Part shown: positions 2,705-52,277 of the stretch, one piece after another | How the letters are laid out: the number at the start of each line of letters is the position of its first letter | How positions within the stretch are numbered: position 1 is the first letter of the stretch | Source of the DNA: a virus | Lineage: Duplodnaviria; Caudoviricetes | Virus record (IMG/VR): IMGVR_UViG_2900261899_000001 | Span: 41,248-105,247 of that record | Reading direction: 5' to 3' (one strand) | Length of the DNA: 64,000 nucleotides | Translations under genes and position numbers: made by a program | The notes under the pieces: generated by a model | The model's database searches: none | The model's input: the letters and a program-made list of their open reading frames with translations, nothing else | Told to the model about the DNA's origin: nothing

Positions 2705-3646
2705 ATGAAGATCGAACGCATTCCCTACACCACGCGCGATGCCTGGCTTGCCGGCCGCGCGAAGGACATCACCGCCTCGGTCGCCGGCGCGGTGCTCGGC
2801 GCCCACGAATACACAACCGCCTTCGAACTCTGGGCGCTGAAAAGTGGTCTCCTGTCGGAGGATCCGACCGAGACGCCGGCGATGCGCCGCGGCCGCCTCC
2901 TCGAGGACGACGCCCTGCAGATGCTGGCCGAGGATCGCCCGACCTGGACGGTCGAGCCGGGCGGCAACGTCTACCTGCGGGCGCCGGACTTTCGCATCGG
3001 CGCGACCCCGGACGCCTACGCCGTGGATCCGAACCGACCAGGCCGTGGCGTCGTGCAGGTCAAGACCGTCTCCGATCTGATCTTCCGCAAGAAGTGGAAG
3101 GATGACGACGGGTCCCTGAACCTGCCGGTCTGGATCGCCTGCCAAGCCATCGTCGAGGCGAAGCTCACCGGGGCATCCTGGGCCTGTGTCGTGCTGATGG
3201 TCGTCGGCCACGGCCTCGACCTCCACGTGATCGACATCCCGCTTCACGCCGGAATCTGGGACCGCCTCGTCGATGAGGCCGCGGCTTTCTGGGCTCGTGT
3301 CGACAGCGGCGAGGCGCCCCCCGCCGACTACGCTCGCGACGGCGACACCATCGCCGATCTCTGGCCGCCGGATGCGACCCGCGAGGTCCTCGATCTGTCC
3401 GGCGACAACCTCATCCCGATGCTCGTCGACGAACTCGACGACGCCAAGGGCCGCATCAATCTCGACGAGACCCGCGTCAAAGAGATCAAGGCCGAACTCG
3501 TCGAGAAGCTCGCCGGCGCCACCGTCGGCCGCCTCGCCGACGGCCGCGAGATCACCCGCACGATCCAGCGGCGCGGCGAATTCACGGTCAAGGCGACCAG
3601 CTTCCCCGTCCTGAAAATCCGCGCACCGCGAAAGGCCGCAGCATGA
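2705..3646 (+). CDS. YqaJ-like viral recombination exonuclease
   Basis: WL..R...ITAS, RGRLLED, GATPD, QVKT motifs; upstream of RecT. Confidence 0.85.
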   Translation: MKIERIPYTTRDAWLAGRAKDITASVAGAVLGAHEYTTAFELWALKSGLLSEDPTETPAMRRGRLLEDDALQMLAEDRPTWTVEPGGNVYLRAPDFRIGATPDAYAVDPNRPGRGVVQVKTVSDLIFRKKWKDDDGSLNLPVWIACQAIVEAKLTGASWACVVLMVVGHGLDLHVIDIPLHAGIWDRLVDEAAAFWARVDSGEAPPADYARDGDTIADLWPPDATREVLDLSGDNLIPMLVDELDDAKGRINLDETRVKEIKAELVEKLAGATVGRLADGREITRTIQRRGEFTVKATSFPVLKIRAPRKAAA

Positions 3647-4608
3647 GCCACGCTCTCGAACTCACCCAAACCGAACGCAAGATCGCGGAACGCATCGATC
3701 CGTCCTCGATGGACGGGCTGACGGTTTCGTCGTCCGCCGGCGGCATCGTGTTCGCCAACGCCGCCGAGGTCATGAACTACGCGAAGATGATGGCCGTCGC
3801 GAATAGTGGCGTCCGTAAGCACCTCCGCGGAAACGTTGGCGCCTGCCTCGCGATCGTGACCCAGGCCGTCGAGTGGGGCATGTCGGCCTACGCGGTGGCG
3901 AACAAGAGCTACTTCTTCAACGACCAGATCGCCTTCGAGTCTCAGCTCGTCCAGGCCGTGATCCTGAAGCGGGCGCCGATCAAGGGCCGGATCAAGTTCG
4001 AATTCACTGGCGAGGGCGAGAAGCGCAAGTGCCGGGCCTGGGCGCGCCTTGCCGACGATCCCGAAGAGATCGCCGAGTACATCTCGCCCGAGTTCGGCAA
4101 GATCACCCCGAAGAACTCGCCGCTTTGGAAGTCCGACCCGGATCAGCAGCACTGCTATTATGCCGGTCGCGCCCTGTGCCGCCGCCATTTCCCCGACGTG
4201 CTGCTCGGCGTCTACGGCGAGGACGAACTGACCCCTCCTCCGCCCGGGCCGGACAACGCGCGCGACGTCACGCCCGCGAAGGGGTTGAACGCGAAGCTCG
4301 ATGCCCTCGCCGCCCGGCCGAAGTCGCAGATCGATCACGCCGAGGATGCCGAGTTCAGCGAGGCGTTCACCGGTGGCGACCATGAGACCGGCGCCAACGA
4401 GACGGTACCCGAGTCGGACGGAGGCGGTGACGATCCGGCCCCCGACATCGATCCGCAGAGCGCCGCCTACAAGCTCGGCCACGACGGCGGGATGAAAGGC
4501 TTTCGGAAAGGGCTGACGGCCGCGATCAAGGAAGATCCGGCGCAGTTGGCGAACTACGAAGCCGGGTATTCGGCCGCCCTGCATGAAAAGAACCGGGAGG
4601 ACGACTGA
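3643..4608 (+). CDS. recT: RecT-family single-strand annealing protein
   Basis: QAVEWGMSAYAVANK, SPLWKSDPDQQ..Y..R..R.FPDVLLGVY motifs. Confidence 0.8.
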   Translation: MSHALELTQTERKIAERIDPSSMDGLTVSSSAGGIVFANAAEVMNYAKMMAVANSGVRKHLRGNVGACLAIVTQAVEWGMSAYAVANKSYFFNDQIAFESQLVQAVILKRAPIKGRIKFEFTGEGEKRKCRAWARLADDPEEIAEYISPEFGKITPKNSPLWKSDPDQQHCYYAGRALCRRHFPDVLLGVYGEDELTPPPPGPDNARDVTPAKGLNAKLDALAARPKSQIDHAEDAEFSEAFTGGDHETGANETVPESDGGGDDPAPDIDPQSAAYKLGHDGGMKGFRKGLTAAIKEDPAQLANYEAGYSAALHEKNREDD

Positions 4609-32466: not shown

Positions 32467-33063
32467 TCAGATCCGGCAGATGAGAGGGGCGAAGCCGGTC
32501 ATGGTGAACCGGTGGAAGTTGAGGTTCGGCGGCGCGAGCAGGTCGGCGTTGAGCGCCGTCACGGCGTCGATCTGAGCTTGCAGTTCGGCGACGCGTTGAT
32601 CGGTGTAGGCGGTGTCCGTCGGACCCTGCGGACCGGTGGTCAGCGCCGGCAGCACCACGCCCGAACCGGGCTGGCCGGCCACGAGGATCTGCGTGAAGGC
32701 CGCCTGCTGCCGAACCAGGGCGCTGTCGGTGGCCGGAAGAACCCGGACCGATGACCGCCCGAGCCATTCGTCGATCGTCGACCCCGTCACCGTCCGGTGA
32801 ACGTCGAACACGAGCGTCGTCGGGGTCGAAGCGAGCCAACCCCCGCGCGCCGCCTTCGGGACCGATAGGATGAGACTGTCCGTCAGCCCGTTCGTGTCCG
32901 CGATCCAGGTGATCGCACCGTTCGCACTATCGAGCGCCACGGCCTCGGGACCGCCGAAGCTGCCTGTCATCGTGGCCGTGAGCCGCGATCCCGTCAGGTT
33001 CAGGGGAACGACGAGTGGGACAATGACCCGCCAATCCGCGGTATCGAGGCATGTAGCGGGCAT
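32467..33063 (-). CDS. Fibre adaptor-like structural protein; 5' end matched by array 2
   Basis: DTADWR...PLNLTG pattern; position in tail-fibre cluster. Confidence 0.55.
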   Translation of the reverse strand: MPATCLDTADWRVIVPLVVPLNLTGSRLTATMTGSFGGPEAVALDSANGAITWIADTNGLTDSLILSVPKAARGGWLASTPTTLVFDVHRTVTGSTIDEWLGRSSVRVLPATDSALVRQQAAFTQILVAGQPGSGVVLPALTTGPQGPTDTAYTDQRVAELQAQIDAVTALNADLLAPPNLNFHRFTMTGFAPLICRI

Positions 33064-33082
33064 GGAAGACCTTCAGATCGAC

Positions 33083-33117: not shown

Positions 33118-33236
33118 TAGCGCGGCATGGCACGGCACCGTTCGGCGTGGCATGGCGAGGCACGGCGCGGCGAGGCTGGGTCGGGTCTGGCGTGGCGTGG
33201 TAGGGGTGAAGAGGTCGGCGTGAGCCGGCCTTTTCC
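33118..33236 (+). ncRNA. GGY-NN pentamer array RNA 2 (candidate gapped guide RNA)
   Basis: TAGCGC, then GGCAT GGCAC GGCAC CGTTC GGCGT GGCAT GGCGA GGCAC GGCGC GGCGA GGCTG GGTCG GGTCT GGCGT GGCGT GGTAG GGGTG, then hairpin AAGAGGTCGGC-GTGA-GCCGGCCTTTT. Confidence 0.8.
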
Positions 33237-33247
33237 GCTTTTTGGAG

Positions 33248-44078: not shown

Positions 44079-44273
44079 GGCCCCTCCCGAGGCGAGGGGT
44101 GGACGCAGAAACGGCAACGGCCCCGGCAGAAATCTGCGCGGGGCCGTTCGTAGGGTCCCTTATACGTCAAGGAACTCTTGGCGACTAGACGGAGGCGCAG
44201 CCATAACAGGCCACCGGCGCGCACATTGTAATAGCGCACGTGGTGCGCTATTTTAGGGATGGGAGGCGGGAAT

Positions 44274-44507
44274 GTGCCGACGTTAAAGCGCTTCGACCAA
44301 TTCAAGATTTGCGTCTTCGCTGACGATCATCCGCCGCCGCATTTCCATGTGATCGGGCGCGGGTTTAAGGCAACGATCTTGTTCGAGACGCTATCGCTTG
44401 ATGTCGGAGAATGCCCCCGGAAGGTGTTCGCGGAGGCGGTGACTTGGGCCGCCGTGAATCGCGAAGCCCTCGAAGAAGCTTGGAGGAACCTCAATGAGCG
44501 ATCGTGA
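44274..44507 (+). CDS. DUF4160 family protein
   Basis: MPT......I....DH.PPHFHV motif. Confidence 0.75.
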   Translation: MPTLKRFDQFKICVFADDHPPPHFHVIGRGFKATILFETLSLDVGECPRKVFAEAVTWAAVNREALEEAWRNLNERS

Positions 44508-45249
44508 CATGATCCGCGCCGGGGATCCTATTCCGTCGATCGGGGCCGTAGAGGTTGGCAACGGTCCTTACGACGTCCTTATCACCTGGGCCGATGGTCA
44601 TCGAGCCGGCCAGCAAATCCTCATCGACCTCGCCCCAGTGATCCTGACCTACAAGGTCTTCATTCCGTTGCGCGATGACCGCCGTCTTTTCGCAACCGTG
44701 CGCGTGGCCGAGTACGGCGAGGCCATCGAGTGGGGTGATAACGATGATCTGGCGGTCGCTGGGACGACGTTGGAGCGCCTTGCCAACGAAACGATGACCA
44801 ATGTCGATTTTGCAGCATTTCTGAAGCGCAACAGGCTCACACTAGATGCCGCAGCTGGGCAGCTCGGGATCGGTCGTCGTCAGGTGTCATACTACGCCAA
44901 AGGGCGGGAGATTCCGAGATATATCTCCCTCGCTTGTAAATATATCGAAGAGCGCAAAGCAGTAGATGATATAAATAATTATTTATCTGCCGGCAACACG
45001 CTTACTAAGATAGGATTGCACAACTGTGTTATAACTGACGGGAATAACAACTTCGATTGCGTGGCTCAAGCTACCGCGGCCTGGGACAGTAATGTCGTGA
45101 TTATCAAAGATGGGGGGGTGATAGAAGGCTATTATGTACCACCGGGTGAGAAACCTGAAGTGATAGTTAAAGGCGGTACGATTAAGGTAGGTTCGGGAAA
45201 TGTAACTGGCACAAGGCGTGCTAAATTAAATCTTGATAAAATTAGATAA
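44494..45249 (+). CDS. DUF2442-HTH antitoxin-like protein with AT-rich C-terminal extension
   Basis: F.PL.D..LF..V....G.AIEW, HTH LT...AA..LGI.RR.V.YY..G..IPR.I.LAC. Confidence 0.7.
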   Translation: MSDRDMIRAGDPIPSIGAVEVGNGPYDVLITWADGHRAGQQILIDLAPVILTYKVFIPLRDDRRLFATVRVAEYGEAIEWGDNDDLAVAGTTLERLANETMTNVDFAAFLKRNRLTLDAAAGQLGIGRRQVSYYAKGREIPRYISLACKYIEERKAVDDINNYLSAGNTLTKIGLHNCVITDGNNNFDCVAQATAAWDSNVVIIKDGGVIEGYYVPPGEKPEVIVKGGTIKVGSGNVTGTRRAKLNLDKIR

Positions 45250-45384
45250 TAGCCATGACCGACCGATCTCTCACCGCCGGGCACCGCGATGATATTCTTC
45301 TACGCACCTTAGACGGCGATTAGAAAAGACTGAGACATTACCCATTTGGGGTAGGATGATATACTAGATTAGGATACCTCAATC

Positions 45385-45690
45385 GTGCAGCTTACAATTG
45401 AAGTGGGCGAACTTAAGGTTCTGGCGAGCGGTGTACTGCTTGTCGATTCCGGTCGAGATGTAAAGTTTACAATTGAAGGAAATGTGTTTGAGCTTATGAT
45501 TGATAAAGATGGGCCGCCATATGAAAAGGTTGGCACAAATCATATTCGAGCCTACTTTAACACTGATAAAATGGTCAGTACTAGTTCAATGATCGGCGAT
45601 TATAATGGTAGGCCGTTAATGATCTCAATCCGTGTTCAGCAGCAAGGTACCCACATTAGGCAGGTTTTTTATACACTGGGTCATCATTAA
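45385..45690 (+). CDS. AT-rich hypothetical protein
   Basis: AGGA RBS; low GC. Confidence 0.55.
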   Translation: MQLTIEVGELKVLASGVLLVDSGRDVKFTIEGNVFELMIDKDGPPYEKVGTNHIRAYFNTDKMVSTSSMIGDYNGRPLMISIRVQQQGTHIRQVFYTLGHH

Positions 45691-45992
45691 TGGCTGTCCG
45701 TCTAGATCTTCCGCCTGACAAAACTTTGGCAACCCGTGTAATTGAAACGGAAGCCGAGCACAATACGCGAAAACTTGAGCGCGGTTTAATGGGTTTGATC
45801 TTTGGTCTCGCCACCGAAAAACCCGGAAATATCGCTGGCTTTGCGCTGATAGCTTTCTGCCTCATGTTTGCGGGGGTTTTGATTTGGGGCACCGATAGCA
45901 GCAGTCTATCAAAGAAAGACGTACTTTCGCTTATAGGTGGTTTTATCACCTTAACGCTCGGCTTCGTATTTGGTCGAACATCATCGTCTTAG
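45690..45992 (+). CDS. AT-rich two-TM membrane protein
   Basis: TAATG coupling; hydrophobic segments ending LGFVFG. Confidence 0.6.
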   Translation: MAVRLDLPPDKTLATRVIETEAEHNTRKLERGLMGLIFGLATEKPGNIAGFALIAFCLMFAGVLIWGTDSSSLSKKDVLSLIGGFITLTLGFVFGRTSSS

Positions 45993-46030
45993 ATGTGTGG
46001 TGCAACGAAGTCATGGACATGAAGAAAATG

Positions 46031-46124
46031 GAAAAGGCCGGCGCGAGCCAGCCCTTTCACCCTTGCCTCGCCTCAACAAACCCCGCCCCGCGGTACCCCG
46101 CCTTGGCCGGCCGTGCCTTAGCTA
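46031..46124 (-). ncRNA. GGY-NN pentamer array RNA 3 (candidate gapped guide RNA)
   Basis: Minus strand: TA GCTAA GGCAC GGCCG GCCAA GGCGG GGTAC CGCGG GGCGG GGTTT GTTGA GGCGA GGCAA GGGTG, then AAAGGGCTGGC-TCGC-GCCGGCCTTTTC. Confidence 0.8.
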
Positions 46125-46131
46125 GATCTCG

Positions 46132-46160
46132 AGCCTAGGATCGGTCCAGCGGCTGGGCAA
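46132..46160 (-). promoter_or_regulatory. Sigma70-like promoter of array 3
   Basis: TTGCCC-N17-TAGGCT, 7 nt before TAGC; same layout as array 2 promoter. Confidence 0.6.
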
Positions 46161-46209
46161 GACAGAGGGTGTGTTTGTCCCTCCCGGTGTACGAGAGGGA
46201 CGGCCGCCG

Positions 46210-48729
46210 TCAGGCTAGGACGCGACCGCCGTACCCTACCGGCGTTTTCAGCGTCGAATCGTCGAACGAACCGGTCCCGTTTCTCGTGTTCGCTTCGGCG
46301 ACCTGATGGTGCGTCACGGACCGACCGACCGTGCGGCCGTCGAGATGCACCGAGCTGGCAACCTGGATCGGGGCGGAACGCCCCTTGTAGATCAGGGAGC
46401 TCGATTTGCCGGGTGTCGCACCGCCACCGCCACCGCCGCCGGACGCGCCGCTTCCGAGATCGGCGCCGCCCGCCGGTTTGGCGCTTGCGCTTCCGATCGC
46501 GGCACGAGCAGCAGCCGCTACCCCGCCGATCCAACCCGCAAGCGCGTTCAGCGGGCCGCCAGCGCCTTGCGCCGCTTGCCCCGCCTTCTGAGCGCCAGAC
46601 GCAGCCTCATTGAGCGTGGAGACCGCACCAGCTGCCGTAGACGCGAGCCGCTGCTTGGCCGCTTCGATATTCTCCGTCGAAAGGCCCAGCCCTTCGGTGC
46701 CGATGTGACGCCGCGGGTTTTCACCACCGCCCGTCATGAATCCGTCGGGACCGCCGAACTCGAATGGCGTGGTACTTTTTCGGCGCTGCTCGGATAGAGT
46801 GTCGGCAAGTTTGCGAGCTGGCTCGCCTGCGATCTTATCCCACGGAAGCGTGACGGCGGCGATGGTGACAGCCGCACCGGCACCGACAGCCAGCGCTGGA
46901 AGGCTGAGCGTGCCGACGGCGGCAATAGCTAGTGCTGCAATACCCGCAGCTGCCGCACCACCGACAACAGCGGCCGTGGCGCCCATCGCCGTCTCGGCTG
47001 CGACTGGATGCTTCTCTAGTGTGTTTGCCACGCCTCCAAGCGCTGCGTTCAAGCGGTTAAGGTTGTCGACAAGGTTTGGGATTGCTGGCTCCGAGAGTGC
47101 GGTCGCCACTGCGCCGCCCTGCGATTTGGTGCCCTGCAGAGCCGCATAGGGGTCGTCGCGCCTATAGGCCGTGGTATCGCCGGAAGTCTTATCGTACCCG
47201 GCGAAGTCTTTTTCGATCTTACTTTTTTGCTGCGCCAATTCGAACAAAAATCCGTAGGCGTTCTTGTCGGTAAAAATTTTACCGAGGGTACGAAGCAGAT
47301 CGGTCTTGTCATCAGTATTGACGCCACCCGCTTTGAGCTTCGGAATGACGTTGTTGTAAAGCCATAGATCCGGGTCCTTGGCCCGGTCATAAGTTTTTCC
47401 GTCCAAGCCCACATCTGAAAATTGAGCACCCGGCTGGACTAACGTGTGTTTCTTGTTCCAAGTGACAGTTGGTTCTTGAAGAAGATTATATTTGTAGGCT
47501 TCAGTGAGCCCCGAGCCCAGCATACGCAAGCCACCGACACCCTTTGCCGCGAAGGTCGCGAACTGGGTACCGGCGCGCTGTCCAATTTCCTGCGAAAGCG
47601 CCGCGAAGGCGCCGTAGCGAAAGTGGTCGCTGGTCAGATTTAGCATCTGACCGCCGTTTTTCTGTGCGGTAAAGTAGTTCGATGGGTTGAGCTTGTCGCC
47701 GTACCAGAAGGCCAACCTCATCAGCGAGTTGGCGTGCTTCTTGACCCCCTCCGAGGTAATCTCGTTAGCTGTTTCAGCCGATTTCACGGCCGTGTAAATC
47801 TCGTTTACAGCGTTCTTAGCGCCGTGATTGCCGGCTTTGGCCTTCAGTGCCGAGAACTCTGGTAGCAATTCTGGCGCTTCGTGAATTGCTTTGTCGATGT
47901 CGCCAAGAATACCGCGGAGATCGTTGATGTGCTCGAAGATCTCGACAGGGGATAGATTAGGAAATTGTTGCGAACCCTTATATGAAAGTTCCTTGGCATG
48001 ATCGATCTGCGCTGGGCTAGCTCCGGTCTGCCGCATGCCGAGTTCAATGTGGCGCATATCGACGCCGGTCTCGATGACCTCAGAGAGCGTATGGACCCCG
48101 CCGGAGACCCCAATGACGCTTGCAAGTGCCGAGCCTTCATGGCCGACGAGACCATGCGTTCCGTGACTGCGCCGGCCATGCCCCCTGCCACGCGTGGCGC
48201 GCCCGGCACCGGTGCCAGCGCCCCCGGCCCCGCCGCCACCCCGGACGGGCGTTGGCAAGTTCACATTGCTCGCGGCTGACTGCAGGCGACGCATGGCGCC
48301 GGCCGCCGAATTGATCCGGCTCGTCCAACCCGAGATCGACTGCGTGACACCCCGCGCCGCTGAAGCGACGCCTTGGGTCTCGCGGCGCATGACGCGCATC
48401 TCGGCGATGGGCTTGCCGATGGCGCTGGCCCAGCGCTGCATTTCACGGTCCAGACCGTTGCCACCCTTCAAGCCAGACATGGCACGCGAGATCCGCGCGA
48501 CCTCGCGCTCGATCTTTTGGCCGGCGGAGGAGGACTTCGACAGTTCGCGGTTCAGTTGGCCGGCGGCGGACGCAGCGCGGTTCAGGGGCGAGACCCAGCG
48601 ACCGAACGATTTCTCAACGGATTTGGTTTTAGAGTCGACATCGCTCAGGGTCTTGAGCAGGCGCGTCATCTCGGGCACGAGATTGCCCGCGAGCGTCATG
48701 CTCGTCTGGATGCGATACACGTCGCTCAC
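46210..48729 (-). CDS. Tape measure protein
   Basis: 839 aa helical Ala/Gly-rich ORF between tail chaperone region and baseplate; C-terminal LDGR.V. Confidence 0.8.
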   Translation of the reverse strand: MSDVYRIQTSMTLAGNLVPEMTRLLKTLSDVDSKTKSVEKSFGRWVSPLNRAASAAGQLNRELSKSSSAGQKIEREVARISRAMSGLKGGNGLDREMQRWASAIGKPIAEMRVMRRETQGVASAARGVTQSISGWTSRINSAAGAMRRLQSAASNVNLPTPVRGGGGAGGAGTGAGRATRGRGHGRRSHGTHGLVGHEGSALASVIGVSGGVHTLSEVIETGVDMRHIELGMRQTGASPAQIDHAKELSYKGSQQFPNLSPVEIFEHINDLRGILGDIDKAIHEAPELLPEFSALKAKAGNHGAKNAVNEIYTAVKSAETANEITSEGVKKHANSLMRLAFWYGDKLNPSNYFTAQKNGGQMLNLTSDHFRYGAFAALSQEIGQRAGTQFATFAAKGVGGLRMLGSGLTEAYKYNLLQEPTVTWNKKHTLVQPGAQFSDVGLDGKTYDRAKDPDLWLYNNVIPKLKAGGVNTDDKTDLLRTLGKIFTDKNAYGFLFELAQQKSKIEKDFAGYDKTSGDTTAYRRDDPYAALQGTKSQGGAVATALSEPAIPNLVDNLNRLNAALGGVANTLEKHPVAAETAMGATAAVVGGAAAAGIAALAIAAVGTLSLPALAVGAGAAVTIAAVTLPWDKIAGEPARKLADTLSEQRRKSTTPFEFGGPDGFMTGGGENPRRHIGTEGLGLSTENIEAAKQRLASTAAGAVSTLNEAASGAQKAGQAAQGAGGPLNALAGWIGGVAAAARAAIGSASAKPAGGADLGSGASGGGGGGGATPGKSSSLIYKGRSAPIQVASSVHLDGRTVGRSVTHHQVAEANTRNGTGSFDDSTLKTPVGYGGRVLA

Positions 48730-50815: not shown

Positions 50816-51313
50816 ATGCAAAATCGGAGAGCAATCCTCACGGCCCTTATTGCGGTACCGCTGACTGGGCCGTTGTGTGCGGGTCAGCCTCATCTTGACG
50901 CGGCCCTGCTCGACCTCGGCAGGCGCTTCGATGCCGCCGTGGCGGCGCACAAAGCCCACGTCCGGGCCTACTTCGCGGCTGACGAGGCCCATACCCAGGC
51001 GCTCCAGGCCGCTAAGTCGGCTGGGCGGTTCAAGGGGCTCGACGCTGAAGCCTACGCAGCGCTCCACTCGCAGCTAATTGAGCCGTTCAACGCGGCGCTA
51101 GAGAGGGACGACGAACTCCACGACGCCTGCGGCAAGCTGGGCGAGCAAATCATCGCGATCCAACCCAAGACTCTGGATGGAATCGCTGTTCTTGCCCGTG
51201 TCTGCCAGTTCGAATCGCGGCAGGCCTGGGAAGCGCCGAAGAGCCGCGAGTACGATGAGGACGTCCTCGTTGCCCTCGTCGACGGCATCTTGGCCGTGGC
51301 CGCTACGGCGTGA
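50816..51313 (+). CDS. Hypothetical protein
   Basis: NRR..L, DAALL.LG, I......TLDG....AR. Confidence 0.6.
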   Translation: MQNRRAILTALIAVPLTGPLCAGQPHLDAALLDLGRRFDAAVAAHKAHVRAYFAADEAHTQALQAAKSAGRFKGLDAEAYAALHSQLIEPFNAALERDDELHDACGKLGEQIIAIQPKTLDGIAVLARVCQFESRQAWEAPKSREYDEDVLVALVDGILAVAATA

Positions 51314-51753
51314 CCTACGAGGAATACCTTGCATCCCCACGATGGGCCGAGCTGCGCCGGCTGAGGCTAGCCCTCGACGGATTCCGCTGCCGGGGCTGCG
51401 ATACCGCCGACAATCTTGAGGTTCACCACCGGCGCTACGGCACCCCGCTGGGCAGCGAGACGGTCGACGACCTGACGACGCTCTGTGGCGGCCCCGAGGG
51501 CTGCCACCACGCGATCACCACCATCATCCGCCGCCGCCTGTACGCGACCCGTCAGTATGACGTGACCGCAGTCGCTCGGCTGGCCCCCGGCAATCTGGAG
51601 AAGAACGATGTCCCAGGACTACGAGCGTTTAAGATTTCGGCTCACCGGCGTGTCGCCCCTGGTCATGCACAACGGTCGCTTGGCGAACCCGCTGGACTCG
51701 TTTGCGAAGGCGCTGAAGGCGGTCTCGGGAAAGCGCGGCAAGACGGACGCTGA
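51310..51753 (+). CDS. HNH endonuclease
   Basis: Y.EYL.SPRW...R...L..DGFRCRGC....LEVHH..Y...G.E...DL.TLC....CH. Confidence 0.8.
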   Translation: MTYEEYLASPRWAELRRLRLALDGFRCRGCDTADNLEVHHRRYGTPLGSETVDDLTTLCGGPEGCHHAITTIIRRRLYATRQYDVTAVARLAPGNLEKNDVPGLRAFKISAHRRVAPGHAQRSLGEPAGLVCEGAEGGLGKARQDGR

Positions 51754-52183
51754 CTTCGAGGAGATGGCCCGTATCGAGTTCCTGGGCGGCCTCTATGTCG
51801 GCGACGATGGTCCTTGCATCCCCGGCGAATTGATCGAAGCGGTCCTGATCGCGGCGGCCAAAAAGAACAAGCGCGGCATGCAGGCCAAGGCCGGCATCCT
51901 TTCGGACGGCAACCACCGGGTCGAGTACCACGGCCCCAGAGGGGCAGAGGAGCTGTGGGCGGACGACCGCTTCCGCCTCGTTGCCGGCGTTCGTGTCGGA
52001 CAGGCCCGTGTGATGCGGACCCGCCCGATCTTTCGGGAGTGGTCGTCAGAAATCTTCGTTGACTTCCTGCCGGGTCAATTGAACCGGGCGGACGTCGCGG
52101 GAATGGTTAGAACCGCAGGCACCATCGTCGGCATCGGCGATTGGAGGCCGCGGTTTGGAAGGTTCACAGTGGAGACGCTGTGA
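51608..52183 (+). CDS. Stand-alone RAMP/Cas7-like protein
   Basis: N-terminal strand RFRLTGVSPLVMHN, central PCIPGELIEAVLIAAA, C-terminal Gly-rich loop AGTIVGIGDWRPRFGRFTV; GGAG RBS; directly followed by pentamer array. Confidence 0.7.
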   Translation: MSQDYERLRFRLTGVSPLVMHNGRLANPLDSFAKALKAVSGKRGKTDADFEEMARIEFLGGLYVGDDGPCIPGELIEAVLIAAAKKNKRGMQAKAGILSDGNHRVEYHGPRGAEELWADDRFRLVAGVRVGQARVMRTRPIFREWSSEIFVDFLPGQLNRADVAGMVRTAGTIVGIGDWRPRFGRFTVETL

Positions 52184-52273
52184 TAGCCCGGTAGGGCAAG
52201 GCGGGTCGCGGCATGCCTCGGCAAGGCGTGGTTCGGTAGGGGTGAAAAGGGCCGGCTTTCGCCGGCCCTTTTC
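52184..52273 (+). ncRNA. GGY-NN pentamer array RNA 1 (candidate gapped guide RNA)
   Basis: TAGCCC, then GGTAG GGCAA GGCGG GTCGC GGCAT GCCTC GGCAA GGCGT GGTTC GGTAG GGGTG, then hairpin AAAAGGGCCGGC-TTTC-GCCGGCCCTTTT. Confidence 0.8.
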
Positions 52274-52277
52274 CACA

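What the first reader, a model, noticed from the sequence alone, without database searches (positions are those of the whole stretch)
46031..46290. Array 3 decodes, with every third base skipped, to the adjacent tape-measure 3' end
The NN string of the minus-strand array is AA AC CG AA GG AC GG GG TT GA GA. The tape-measure sense strand at 46290-46258 reads AAC ACG AGA AAC GGG ACC GGT TCG TTC GAC GAT. Comparing codon positions 1-2 gives 9 of 11 dinucleotides identical (19/22 nt), about 135 bp from the array. The guide spells N-T-R-N-G-T-G-G-F-D-D against the gene's N-T-R-N-G-T-G-S-F-D-D. This is direct in-window evidence for an NN-x-NN-x non-contiguous targeting code.
Basis: seen in the sequence. 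Interest (0 to 1): 0.95.

Follow-up and report, generated by a model that had tools for sequence, protein, structure and literature searches.

The report
VIPR guide RNA beside its target
The repeat array is a guide RNA of a recently described phage system (VIPR) that reads DNA two bases at a time and skips every third, and here it matches the end of the prophage's own tape-measure gene next door.

Summary
The 11 NN dinucleotides of the minus-strand NNGGC array (46119..46065) match codon positions 1-2 of the adjacent 839-aa tape-measure ORF at 46290..46258 in 19 of 22 bases. This is the best gap-1 hit in the window and in the whole 4.6 Mb assembly; 3 of 3000 dinucleotide-order shuffles reach it. 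Gaps 0, 2 and 4 give at most 16 of 22.

This is a VIPR system (bioRxiv 2026): vrRNAs of 9-16 GGY/NN repeats plus a fixed 3' tail, bound by a Vipr filament, and a one-base skip in the target.

The 191-aa ORF 51608..52183 matches the solved SUSP1 Vipr protein (E 1.2e-31). Three vrRNAs in the window share the repeat tract and a hairpin tail.

Two points are less ordinary. First, the guide hits its own contig at 86%, which the discovery paper did not see in the clades it tested. Second, both dispersed vrRNAs lie within about 140 bp of the prophage's own copy of the gene family they match.

Homologous tape-measure ends in two related genomes match equally well (19/22). The own gene's mismatched Arg codon is its only AGA among 47 Arg codons.

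Verdict: a new member of a known kind.

The parts
46065..46119 (-). vrRNA3 repeat tract: 11 NNGGY units (GGY/NN register). Three of the 11 GGY motifs are degenerate (GCC, CGC, GTT).
46021..46064 (-). vrRNA3 3' tail: AAGGGUG, then a 12-bp hairpin (46058..46031), then a U-rich run. It looks like a terminator.
   Evidence: The tail is conserved in 10 vrRNAs, and 8 of 16 predicted pairs show compensatory changes.
46258..46290 (-). Cognate site of vrRNA3, written as the non-target (coding) strand. NN falls on codon positions 1-2 and the skipped base on the wobble, at codons 814-824 (NTRNGTGSFDD). The + strand would be the strand paired by the guide.
   Evidence: polarity rule
46210..48729 (-). 839-aa probable tape-measure gene that holds the site.
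   Evidence: phrog_28 at E 1.2e-4. It sits at the head of a tail/baseplate module. Homologous C-termini occur in G008 and G133.
51608..52183 (+). vipr gene (191 aa, RAMP-type guide-binding protein).
   Evidence: PDB 36pp_D SUSP1 Vipr, E 1.2e-31, residues 8-190 aligned to 4-189 of 202; phrog_4652 at E 1e-52
52188..52274 (+). vrRNA2: 10 units plus an AGGGG unit and a hairpin tail, directly after vipr.
33122..33243 (+). vrRNA1: 16 units plus an AGGGG unit and a hairpin tail. It is a dispersed ('solo') copy in the tail module.
33020..33066 (-). Own-genome partial site of vrRNA1 (23/32): the start codon and first 15 codons of ORF 32467..33063(-).
51310..51753 (+). HNH-endonuclease-like ORF that overlaps the start of vipr. 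It is a candidate accessory (vap) gene.
   Evidence: PHROG HNH families at E 1e-6. Pfam HNH was found in the equivalent ORF of L012, L013 and L014.

Best explanation
Array 3 is a guide RNA (vrRNA) of a prophage-borne VIPR system.

Shown: the repeat tract, the shared tail, the vipr homologue, the one-base-skip match in frame with wobble skipping, and its recurrence in relatives.

Inferred from the published mechanism: Vipr protomers from ORF 51608..52183 polymerise along the RNA, one per GGY/NN repeat. They hide each GGY and present the NN pairs. The filament then opens double-stranded DNA and pairs the NN bases with the template (+) strand at 46258..46290, skipping each wobble base. A bound filament blocks transcription.

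Inferred here: the guide is aimed at a conserved motif ([N/D]TRNGT[G/Q][G/S]FD) 26 residues from the C-terminus of tape-measure proteins of a family of related prophages, where a roadblock would cut off the downstream tail and baseplate genes. On this reading, the hit on the phage's own gene is a consequence of kinship with those targets. It is weakened by two mismatched units, one of them a synonymous CGN-to-AGA switch.
For: Protein. The 191-aa ORF matches the solved SUSP1 Vipr at E 1.2e-31 over 183 residues. In the printed alignment, the residues the structure paper names for GGY and DNA contacts are conserved: H17, K33, R39, E71, K82, G87, R138, D177, W178, R179. K88 is not. This is my reading.

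RNA. Three arrays of 10-16 units share ARGGGUGAA plus a 12-13 bp hairpin. Across 10 tails, 8 of 16 predicted pairs have compensatory changes. All 7 IMG/VR loci that encode a relative of the protein carry NNGG[C/T/A] arrays downstream of the gene.

Code. The match is 19/22 at gap 1 only. Three of 3000 shuffles reach it, and it is the best hit in the assembly.

Recurrence.
- G061 array b has the same flanks as array 3 but different NN letters. It matches its own tape-measure gene (phrog_2276, E 1e-51) in frame at 19/22, with 0 of 500 shuffles reaching that score. The two tape-measure proteins do not align by BLASTP.
- G150 array a matches its own tape-measure gene at 18/22, in frame, 0 of 200 shuffles.
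- G087 array a matches the antisense strand of its own 'DNA ejection protein' gene with 8 perfect units and the skipped base on the wobble, 0 of 200 shuffles.

Kin targets. Among 146 genomes of the genus, the pattern with up to 3 mismatches is found in 6. Three of these are homologous tape-measure ends at the same distance from the stop: the own gene, G008 and G133, each at 19/22. G008 and G133 carry CG and GG at the units where the own gene mismatches.

Codon. The own gene's Arg codon at unit 3 is the only AGA among its 47 Arg codons. AGA makes up 5 of 252 Arg codons in 14 prophage genes.

Parallel case. vrRNA1 matches the first codons of homologues of its neighbour ORF better in four of five other genomes (27, 26, 26 and 25 of 32; fifth 24) than in its own (23/32).
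Against: No RNA data: no RNA run was listed, so expression, the RNA ends and binding to Vipr are all unshown.

No target better than the own gene was found. The best relatives tie at 19/22. Exact searches of units 2-10 in IMG/VR, the genome set and the metagenome set gave only chance-level hits besides one Methylobacterium tape-measure gene, again at 19/22. The evidence therefore does not show that the guide is aimed at others rather than at itself.

With the 12th unit counted, the own match is 79%, just under the papers' 80% cut-off.

The effect of two mismatched units on binding is unknown. I found no mismatch-tolerance data in the passages I read.

The tape-measure call for the window's ORF rests on a weak PHROG hit (E 1.2e-4) and on synteny.

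Of 35 in-phase runs tested in 8 sequences, only 2 gave significant own-genome hits. In the more distant relatives (G062-G068), own-genome matching was not seen in any of the 24 runs tested.
Confidence: 0.85

Rival explanations
1. Self-regulation. vrRNA3 with Vipr binds the prophage's own tape-measure 3' end on purpose, to keep the tail operon silent in the lysogen or to time late expression. This can coexist with kin-targeting.
For: The own site is tied for the best match in the genus at 19/22. In 3 of 4 related prophages, one vrRNA matches that prophage's own tape-measure gene: window, G061 and G150. Array 3 and G061 array b differ at 5 units, and each agrees with its own gene there. This looks like co-variation with self.
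Against: The published clades show no own-contig hits at 80% or more, and show self scores lower than non-self scores. The single rare AGA codon and a Gly-to-Ser change sit exactly on the guide, which looks like loss of pairing rather than maintenance. vrRNA1 matches its own gene worst among the true homologues.
Confidence: 0.25
2. Guide-plus-resistant-allele cassette. Each dispersed vrRNA is kept next to an allele of its target gene that has escaped it, so that the weapon and the immunity travel together when phages recombine.
For: Both dispersed vrRNAs lie next to the own copy of the family they match. vrRNA3 is 138 nt from its site, and vrRNA1 is 56 nt from its site. The own alleles carry guide-breaking changes. 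Homologous genes in the relatives examined have no array beside them: 9 of 9 loci lack a tail-bearing array, though one has a 7-unit GG-periodic run without a tail.
Against: In G061, G087 and G150 the arrays sit beside vipr, 5-19 kb from their own-genome sites. vrRNA3 does not score lower on self than on the known relatives. There are only two cases, both in one prophage.
Confidence: 0.2
3. Coincidence. The 19/22 agreement is a chance hit picked out of many possible decodings.
For: Three of 3000 shuffles reach 19/22 somewhere in the window. An unrelated 22/22 hit exists in a Pantoea patatin-like gene, on the antisense strand, so chance matches do occur in very large databases.
Against: The hit lies 138 nt from the array, on the same strand and in the wobble-skipping register. 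It is the top hit in 4.6 Mb. The same relation recurs with other letters in G061 and G150. The code is established experimentally.
Confidence: 0.02
4. The arrays are some other GG-periodic RNA or DNA element: a sponge for a ring protein of the TRAP or CsrA kind, tandem two-tier G-quadruplexes, a packaging site, or a five-base 'codon' message.
For: The five-base period with a fixed GGN and two free bases resembles TRAP sites. Every array ends with an in-phase TGA, and array 1 has an in-phase ATG. Arrays lie near contig ends in G062 and G064.
Against: A Vipr homologue sits beside the arrays. In-phase TAG occurs in arrays of G063, G064 and L046, so a read-3-skip-2 message is not kept open. Dinucleotides are kept identical where the implied residues would differ (AA against AAC, TT against TTC), which points to base pairing rather than peptide similarity.
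Confidence: 0.02

Closest known systems
VIPR systems, SUSP1 / Pseudomonas fulva clades (type II), bioRxiv 10.64898/2026.04.26.720920 and 10.64898/2026.04.26.720927
   Same: A single Vipr protein of about 20 kDa, with E 1.2e-31 to the solved SUSP1 protein. vrRNAs of 10-16 GGY/NN pentamers with a fixed structured 3' tail. A one-base skip that falls on the wobble. A target in a coding sequence. A prophage setting.
   Different: About 37% identity to SUSP1 Vipr, by my count of the alignment printed. The tail is a plain 12-13 bp hairpin with a U run, whereas the paper describes a pseudoknot for the SUSP1 clade. Two of the three vrRNAs are scattered in the tail module rather than flanking vipr. The guide hits its own contig at 86%, which the paper did not see for the P. 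fulva clade or for types III and V. The neighbouring gene is HNH-like rather than a described vap1. I could not assign a type because the classification data are in supplements I could not open.
Solo (orphan) vrRNAs of SUSP1-family phages and F5 satellites, bioRxiv 10.64898/2026.10.15.759431
   Same: vrRNAs placed away from vipr. The logic of scoring lower on self than on rivals: vrRNA1 here scores 23/32 on self against 24-27/32 on five homologues. Virion-module genes are involved in the conflict; the satellites carry tape-measure and baseplate genes.
   Different: Here the phage keeps vipr. The solo guides match structural genes, not vipr, vrRNAs, a recombinase or host REP decoys. They also sit directly beside the own copy of the matched gene.
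Class 1 CRISPR backbone (Cas7 filament on crRNA)
   Same: A RAMP-fold protein polymerised along a guide, with a thumb that breaks the guide-target duplex periodically.
   Different: CRISPR flips one base in six on both strands and uses contiguous 5-nt segments. Here 3 of 5 guide bases and 1 of 3 target bases are displaced. There is no CRISPR repeat-spacer array, no Cas1/Cas2 and no PAM.

Membership tests
VIPR system | Vipr protein: small RAMP homologue (RRM core, G-loop, thumb) | tested here: met
   ORF 51608..52183 matches PDB 36pp_D 'SUSP1 Vipr protein' at E 1.2e-31, aligning 8-190 to 4-189 of 202. The G-loop GDWRPRFGRF and the thumb RPIFR motifs are conserved. The fold itself was not predicted.
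VIPR system | vrRNA of 9-16 tandem YNNGG (GGY/NN) repeats with conserved GGY and variable NN | tested here: met
   Array 3 has 11 units, array 2 has 10 and array 1 has 16. GGY is intact in 8 of 11 units of array 3. NN strings differ between homologous arrays of the window and G061.
VIPR system | Invariant, structured 3' tail after the repeat tract | tested here: met
   ARGGGUGAA plus a hairpin in all three arrays. Ten tails were aligned, and 8 of 16 pairs are compensatory. Whether it forms a pseudoknot like the SUSP1 tail was not tested.
VIPR system | Natural target obeying the one-base skip rule at 80% or more NN match, gapless, with the skipped base on the codon wobble | tested here: met
   19/22 = 86% at gap 1, in frame. 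It is 79% if a 12th unit is counted. G061 array b is 19/22 and G150 array a is 18/22.
VIPR system | Accessory gene (vap) beside vipr | tested here: inconclusive
   An HNH-like ORF overlaps the start of vipr in the window, L012, L013 and L014. It does not in L097 (Rha/ANT protein) or L098. The paper's fig. S21 legend lists HNH among Vap domains, but I could not see which type.
VIPR system | vrRNA expressed as an RNA of about 100 nt and bound by Vipr | not testable with these tools
   No RNA run was listed. There is a terminator-like hairpin at the 3' end and no sigma-70-like promoter match in 45900..46320.
VIPR system | Sequence-specific dsDNA binding and transcriptional silencing | not testable with these tools
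   Known only for the SUSP1 and P. fulva systems.
CRISPR-Cas | Repeat-spacer array with cas1/cas2 or a multi-subunit effector | tested here: not met
   No such repeats appear in the tandem-repeat and Rfam scans. The only RAMP-like gene is the lone vipr.

The most novel reading that the evidence does not exclude
The dispersed vrRNAs are physically linked to the prophage's own, partly guide-resistant allele of the gene family they attack. Guide and immunity would then form a small cassette that spreads by recombination, a poison-antidote logic for RNA-guided silencing. The sole AGA codon would be an example of the one synonymous escape route that the wobble-skipping code leaves open, namely six-fold degenerate Arg, Leu and Ser codons. 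Alternatively, the closeness of guide and cognate gene (56 and 138 nt) may be a trace of how new vrRNA guides arise, which I saw addressed nowhere in the VIPR text I read.
Probability: 0.2. Interest if true: 0.7.

Novelty: new member of a known kind. Interest (0 to 1): 0.5.

Why it matters
The finding shows that the VIPR one-base-skip code can be read straight from a single genome window. It also adds an alphaproteobacterial prophage clade to the described systems; sources name its closest protein relatives Methylobacterium, Microvirga and Azospirillum.

For specialists the code itself is no longer news. Three points are new:
- own-contig hits at 80% or more;
- guides lying beside the own copy of their target family;
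- a rare AGA codon sitting on a mismatched guide unit.

Together these make three questions testable: how these systems avoid or use self-silencing, how many mismatched units they tolerate, and whether six-fold degenerate codons serve as escape routes from a code thought to be proof against synonymous change.

Tried and rejected
Before the literature search I considered several other readings. None explains a lone Vipr homologue beside the arrays.
- A TRAP-like or CsrA-like protein sponge. CAGGA starts each module in G064.
- Tandem two-tier G-quadruplexes.
- A terminase binding site. Arrays sit near contig ends.
- A DGR-like template/variable repeat pair.
- A 'read three, skip two' message. 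Every array ends in an in-phase TGA, and array 1 has an in-phase ATG. This reading fails because in-phase TAG occurs in other arrays, and because dinucleotides stay identical where the implied residues differ.

Searches that found nothing or only chance hits:
- Rfam at gathering thresholds gave 0 matches, and there are no tRNAs.
- A tail-motif pattern searched in 60 relatives gave only chance hits without arrays.
- tblastn of the tape-measure protein against GenBank phages gave no match.
- Exact search of guide units 2-10: IMG/VR gave 0 hits, the genome set 18 and metagenomes 16. By my arithmetic, about 17 hits are expected by chance in the genome set for 18 fixed bases. Only L078 and L124, a Methylobacterium-type tape-measure end at 19/22, are meaningful. 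The 22/22 hit in a Pantoea chromosome lies antisense in a patatin-like gene and is read as chance.
- vrRNA2: no own-genome hit. In the genus, 53 of 146 genomes hit with up to 3 mismatches, but these reduce to a few conserved chromosomal loci, one of them out of the wobble register, plus singletons. That is close to the reversed-pattern control. Its target remains unknown.
- Arrays of the distant relatives G062-G068: 0 of 24 runs gave a significant own-contig hit. Several of those contigs are incomplete.
- No RNA holder was listed for 45900..46700.

Not done or not available:
- Structure prediction, fold search, complex prediction and the protein atlas were not used, because the sequence match to a solved Vipr made them unnecessary.
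- Supplements of the three VIPR papers were not seen. They hold the type classification, the locus list and the self-targeting tables, and they may already list this clade.

What I read of the papers:
- 10.64898/2026.04.26.720920: outline, Results, Discussion, Methods parts 1-2 and searched passages.
- 10.64898/2026.04.26.720927: outline and Results.
- 10.64898/2026.10.15.759431: outline, sections 8 and 17, and searched passages.
- 10.64898/2026.10.21.760802: search listing only.
Full report
What is there.

On the minus strand, 46119..46065 is a run of eleven five-base units: AAGGC ACGGC CGGCC AAGGC GGGGT ACCGC GGGGC GGGGT TTGTT GAGGC GAGGC. It is followed by AAGGGTG and a 12-bp hairpin with a U-rich run at 46058..46021. 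Two more arrays in the window have the same build, at 33122..33243(+) and 52188..52274(+).

The window is identical to G000:C32:41248-105247. Of 25 occurrences of the tail motif in the 4.6 Mb assembly, only these three carry arrays.

The region is a prophage tail module. It holds a collagen-like tail fibre, baseplate and tail proteins, and an 839-aa ORF at 46210..48729(-) with a weak tape-measure hit. Rfam and tRNA scans are blank.

The observation.

The NN string of array 3 is AA AC CG AA GG AC GG GG TT GA GA. Read with one base skipped after each pair, it matches the minus strand at 46290..46259 in 19 of 22 bases and 9 of 11 dinucleotides. The site is in frame with the 839-aa ORF at codons 814-824 (NTRNGTGSFDD), and the skipped base is the wobble.

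- Gap 1 gives 19, with 15 as next best. Gap 0 gives at most 16, and gaps 2 and 4 at most 15. Gap 3 finds only the array itself.
- Three of 3000 shuffles of the dinucleotide order reach 19 anywhere in the window.
- In the whole assembly the site stays on top, 19 against 17.
- The site lies 138 nt from the array on the same strand.

If the AAGGG unit that opens the tail is counted as a twelfth guide unit, the match is 19/24.

Finding relatives.

The 191-aa ORF just upstream of array 2 (51608..52183, phrog_4652 at E 1e-52, no Pfam hit) has 1112 relatives at E 0.001 or better. Every relative that carries a name is called hypothetical. All seven IMG/VR loci that encode a relative carry NNGG[C/T/A] arrays downstream, some in long tandem series.

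In the closest of them (G061, 78% identity) the second array has the same first and last units as array 3 but different letters in between: AA AC AT AA GA AA CG TC TT AA GA. It matches G061:33469..33438(-) at 19/22 with gap 1. Zero of 500 shuffles reach that score, and other gaps give nothing. The site is in frame, at codons 933-943 of a 983-aa tape-measure gene (phrog_2276, E 1e-51).

The two tape-measure proteins do not align by BLASTP. Even so, the two arrays differ at five units and each agrees with its own gene there.

Identification.

A full-text search for 'every third nucleotide' plus 'guide RNA' led to three 2026 preprints on VIPR systems. According to the parts I read:
- vrRNAs hold 9-16 YNNGG repeats and an invariant structured tail.
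- Vipr, a RAMP protein of about 20 kDa, forms a helical filament with one protomer per repeat. It sequesters each GGY and presents the NN.
- The NN pairs bind the target DNA strand with one base skipped, usually the wobble.
- Either strand can be targeted, and there is no PAM.
- The outcome is transcriptional silencing of competing phages and satellites.

The window's 191-aa ORF matches the solved SUSP1 Vipr (PDB 36pp_D) at E 1.2e-31 over residues 8-190. In the printed alignment the residues the structure paper names are conserved: H17, K33, R39, E71, K82, G87, R138, D177, W178 and R179. K88 is not.

The tails of ten vrRNAs from the window and from four IMG/VR contigs (loci L050, L036, L040, L046) share ARGGGUGAA and a hairpin, and 8 of 16 pairs show compensatory changes.

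This locus is a further member.

What the guide is for.

The discovery paper reports no own-contig hit at 80% or more for the P. fulva clade or for types III and V. Here the own hit is 86%.

I looked for better targets. Among 146 genomes of the genus, the pattern with up to three mismatches occurs in six. Three of those are homologous tape-measure ends, each 26 residues from the stop: the own gene, G008 (DTRNGTQGFDD) and G133 (DTRNGTGGFDS). All three score 19/22. The other three are unrelated. No hit has fewer than three mismatches.

Exact searches of units 2-10 in IMG/VR (0 hits), the genome set (18) and metagenomes (16) add only one more copy of the G133-type gene. The rest are at chance level, including a 22/22 hit lying antisense in a Pantoea patatin-like gene.

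G008 and G133 carry CG and GG at the two units where the own gene mismatches. The own gene's AGA at unit 3 is its only AGA among 47 Arg codons, and AGA accounts for 5 of 252 Arg codons in 14 prophage genes.

With this query, vipr is found in 7 of 146 genus genomes. G133 is not among them.

Parallel evidence from the other arrays.

vrRNA1 lies 56 nt from its best own-genome site, the start codon and first 15 codons of the divergent ORF 32467..33063. It matches that site at 23/32, which is not significant on its own: 22 of 200 shuffles do as well. Homologues of that ORF in other genomes match at 27, 26, 26, 25 and 24 of 32. None of the nine relatives' loci examined has a vrRNA beside the gene.

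Two further close relatives also hit their own prophage:
- G150 array a matches its tape-measure gene at 18/22, in frame.
- G087 array a matches the antisense strand of its 'DNA ejection protein' gene with eight perfect units and the skipped base on the wobble.
In each case 0 of 200 shuffles reach the score.

By contrast, 0 of 24 runs in the more distant contigs G062-G068 gave a significant own-contig hit. vrRNA2 has no credible target in its own genome or in the genus.

Reading.

The best-supported account is that vrRNA3 is a VIPR guide against a conserved C-terminal motif of tape-measure genes in a family of related prophages. The own gene is hit because it belongs to that family, and its two mismatched units may lessen self-silencing.

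The data do not exclude deliberate self-repression, since the own site ties for best.

Both dispersed guides lie within about 140 nt of the own copy of their target family. I could not explain this. It suggests either a guide-plus-resistant-allele cassette or a clue to how guides arise.

Limits.

- There are no RNA or binding data.
- The type and the accessory gene were not assigned. An HNH-like ORF overlaps the start of vipr in 4 of 6 loci examined.

Noticed in passing
window 33122..33243 (+) and 33020..33066 (-): vrRNA1 (16 units) lies 56 nt from its best own-genome site, the start codon and first 15 codons of the divergent ORF 32467..33063. It matches that site at 23/32. Homologues of the ORF in five other genus genomes match better: 27, 26, 26, 25 and 24 of 32.
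   Followed up: yes
window 52188..52274 (+): vrRNA2, directly after vipr, has no credible one-skip target in its own genome or in 146 genus genomes. The recurrent 17-18/20 hit is a conserved chromosomal gene in which the skipped base is not the wobble.
   Followed up: partly
G000:C2:132842-133402 and 133417-133456 (outside the window): A second vipr homologue (42% identity, E 1.3e-45) in the same genome, followed by one short 8-unit array with a different tail. It has no own-genome target (best score 13/16).
   Followed up: partly
window 44259..45992 (+): A low-GC island (0.45 against about 0.67 elsewhere) of four plus-strand ORFs, one with a weak DUF6864 hit. It is wedged between vrRNA3 and the rest of the minus-strand tail module. 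G061 also has a low-GC stretch at the 3' end of its tape-measure gene.
   Followed up: no
window 46120..46140: A run of six-base palindromes (AGATCT, CTCGAG, CCTAGG) lies immediately 5' of vrRNA3 on the RNA strand. Nothing similar precedes vrRNA1 or vrRNA2. A short TAGC precedes all three.
   Followed up: no
window 51310..51753 (+): An HNH-like ORF overlaps the start of vipr by 146 nt. The same overlap and HNH domain recur in L012, L013 and L014 but not in L097 or L098. It may be an accessory (vap) gene or the phage's packaging HNH.
   Followed up: partly
L015/L016/L017 (G064, G066) about 3430..4060; L018: Distant relatives carry at least 11 tandem vrRNA-like modules of 8-13 units, each starting with CAGGA and shifted in phase from the last. 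They run up to the contig end, and no terminator hairpin separates them.
   Followed up: partly
G087:C3 about 660629..660669; G150:C162:20514..20545: In two close relatives, the vrRNA next to vipr matches that prophage's own virion genes. One hits a 'DNA ejection protein' gene on the antisense strand with 8 perfect units. The other hits a tape-measure gene at 18/22.
   Followed up: yes
L072:5642..5673 (-): A perfect 22/22 one-skip match to vrRNA3 lies antisense inside a patatin-like phospholipase gene of a Pantoea chromosome. I read it as chance given the size of the database.
   Followed up: partly
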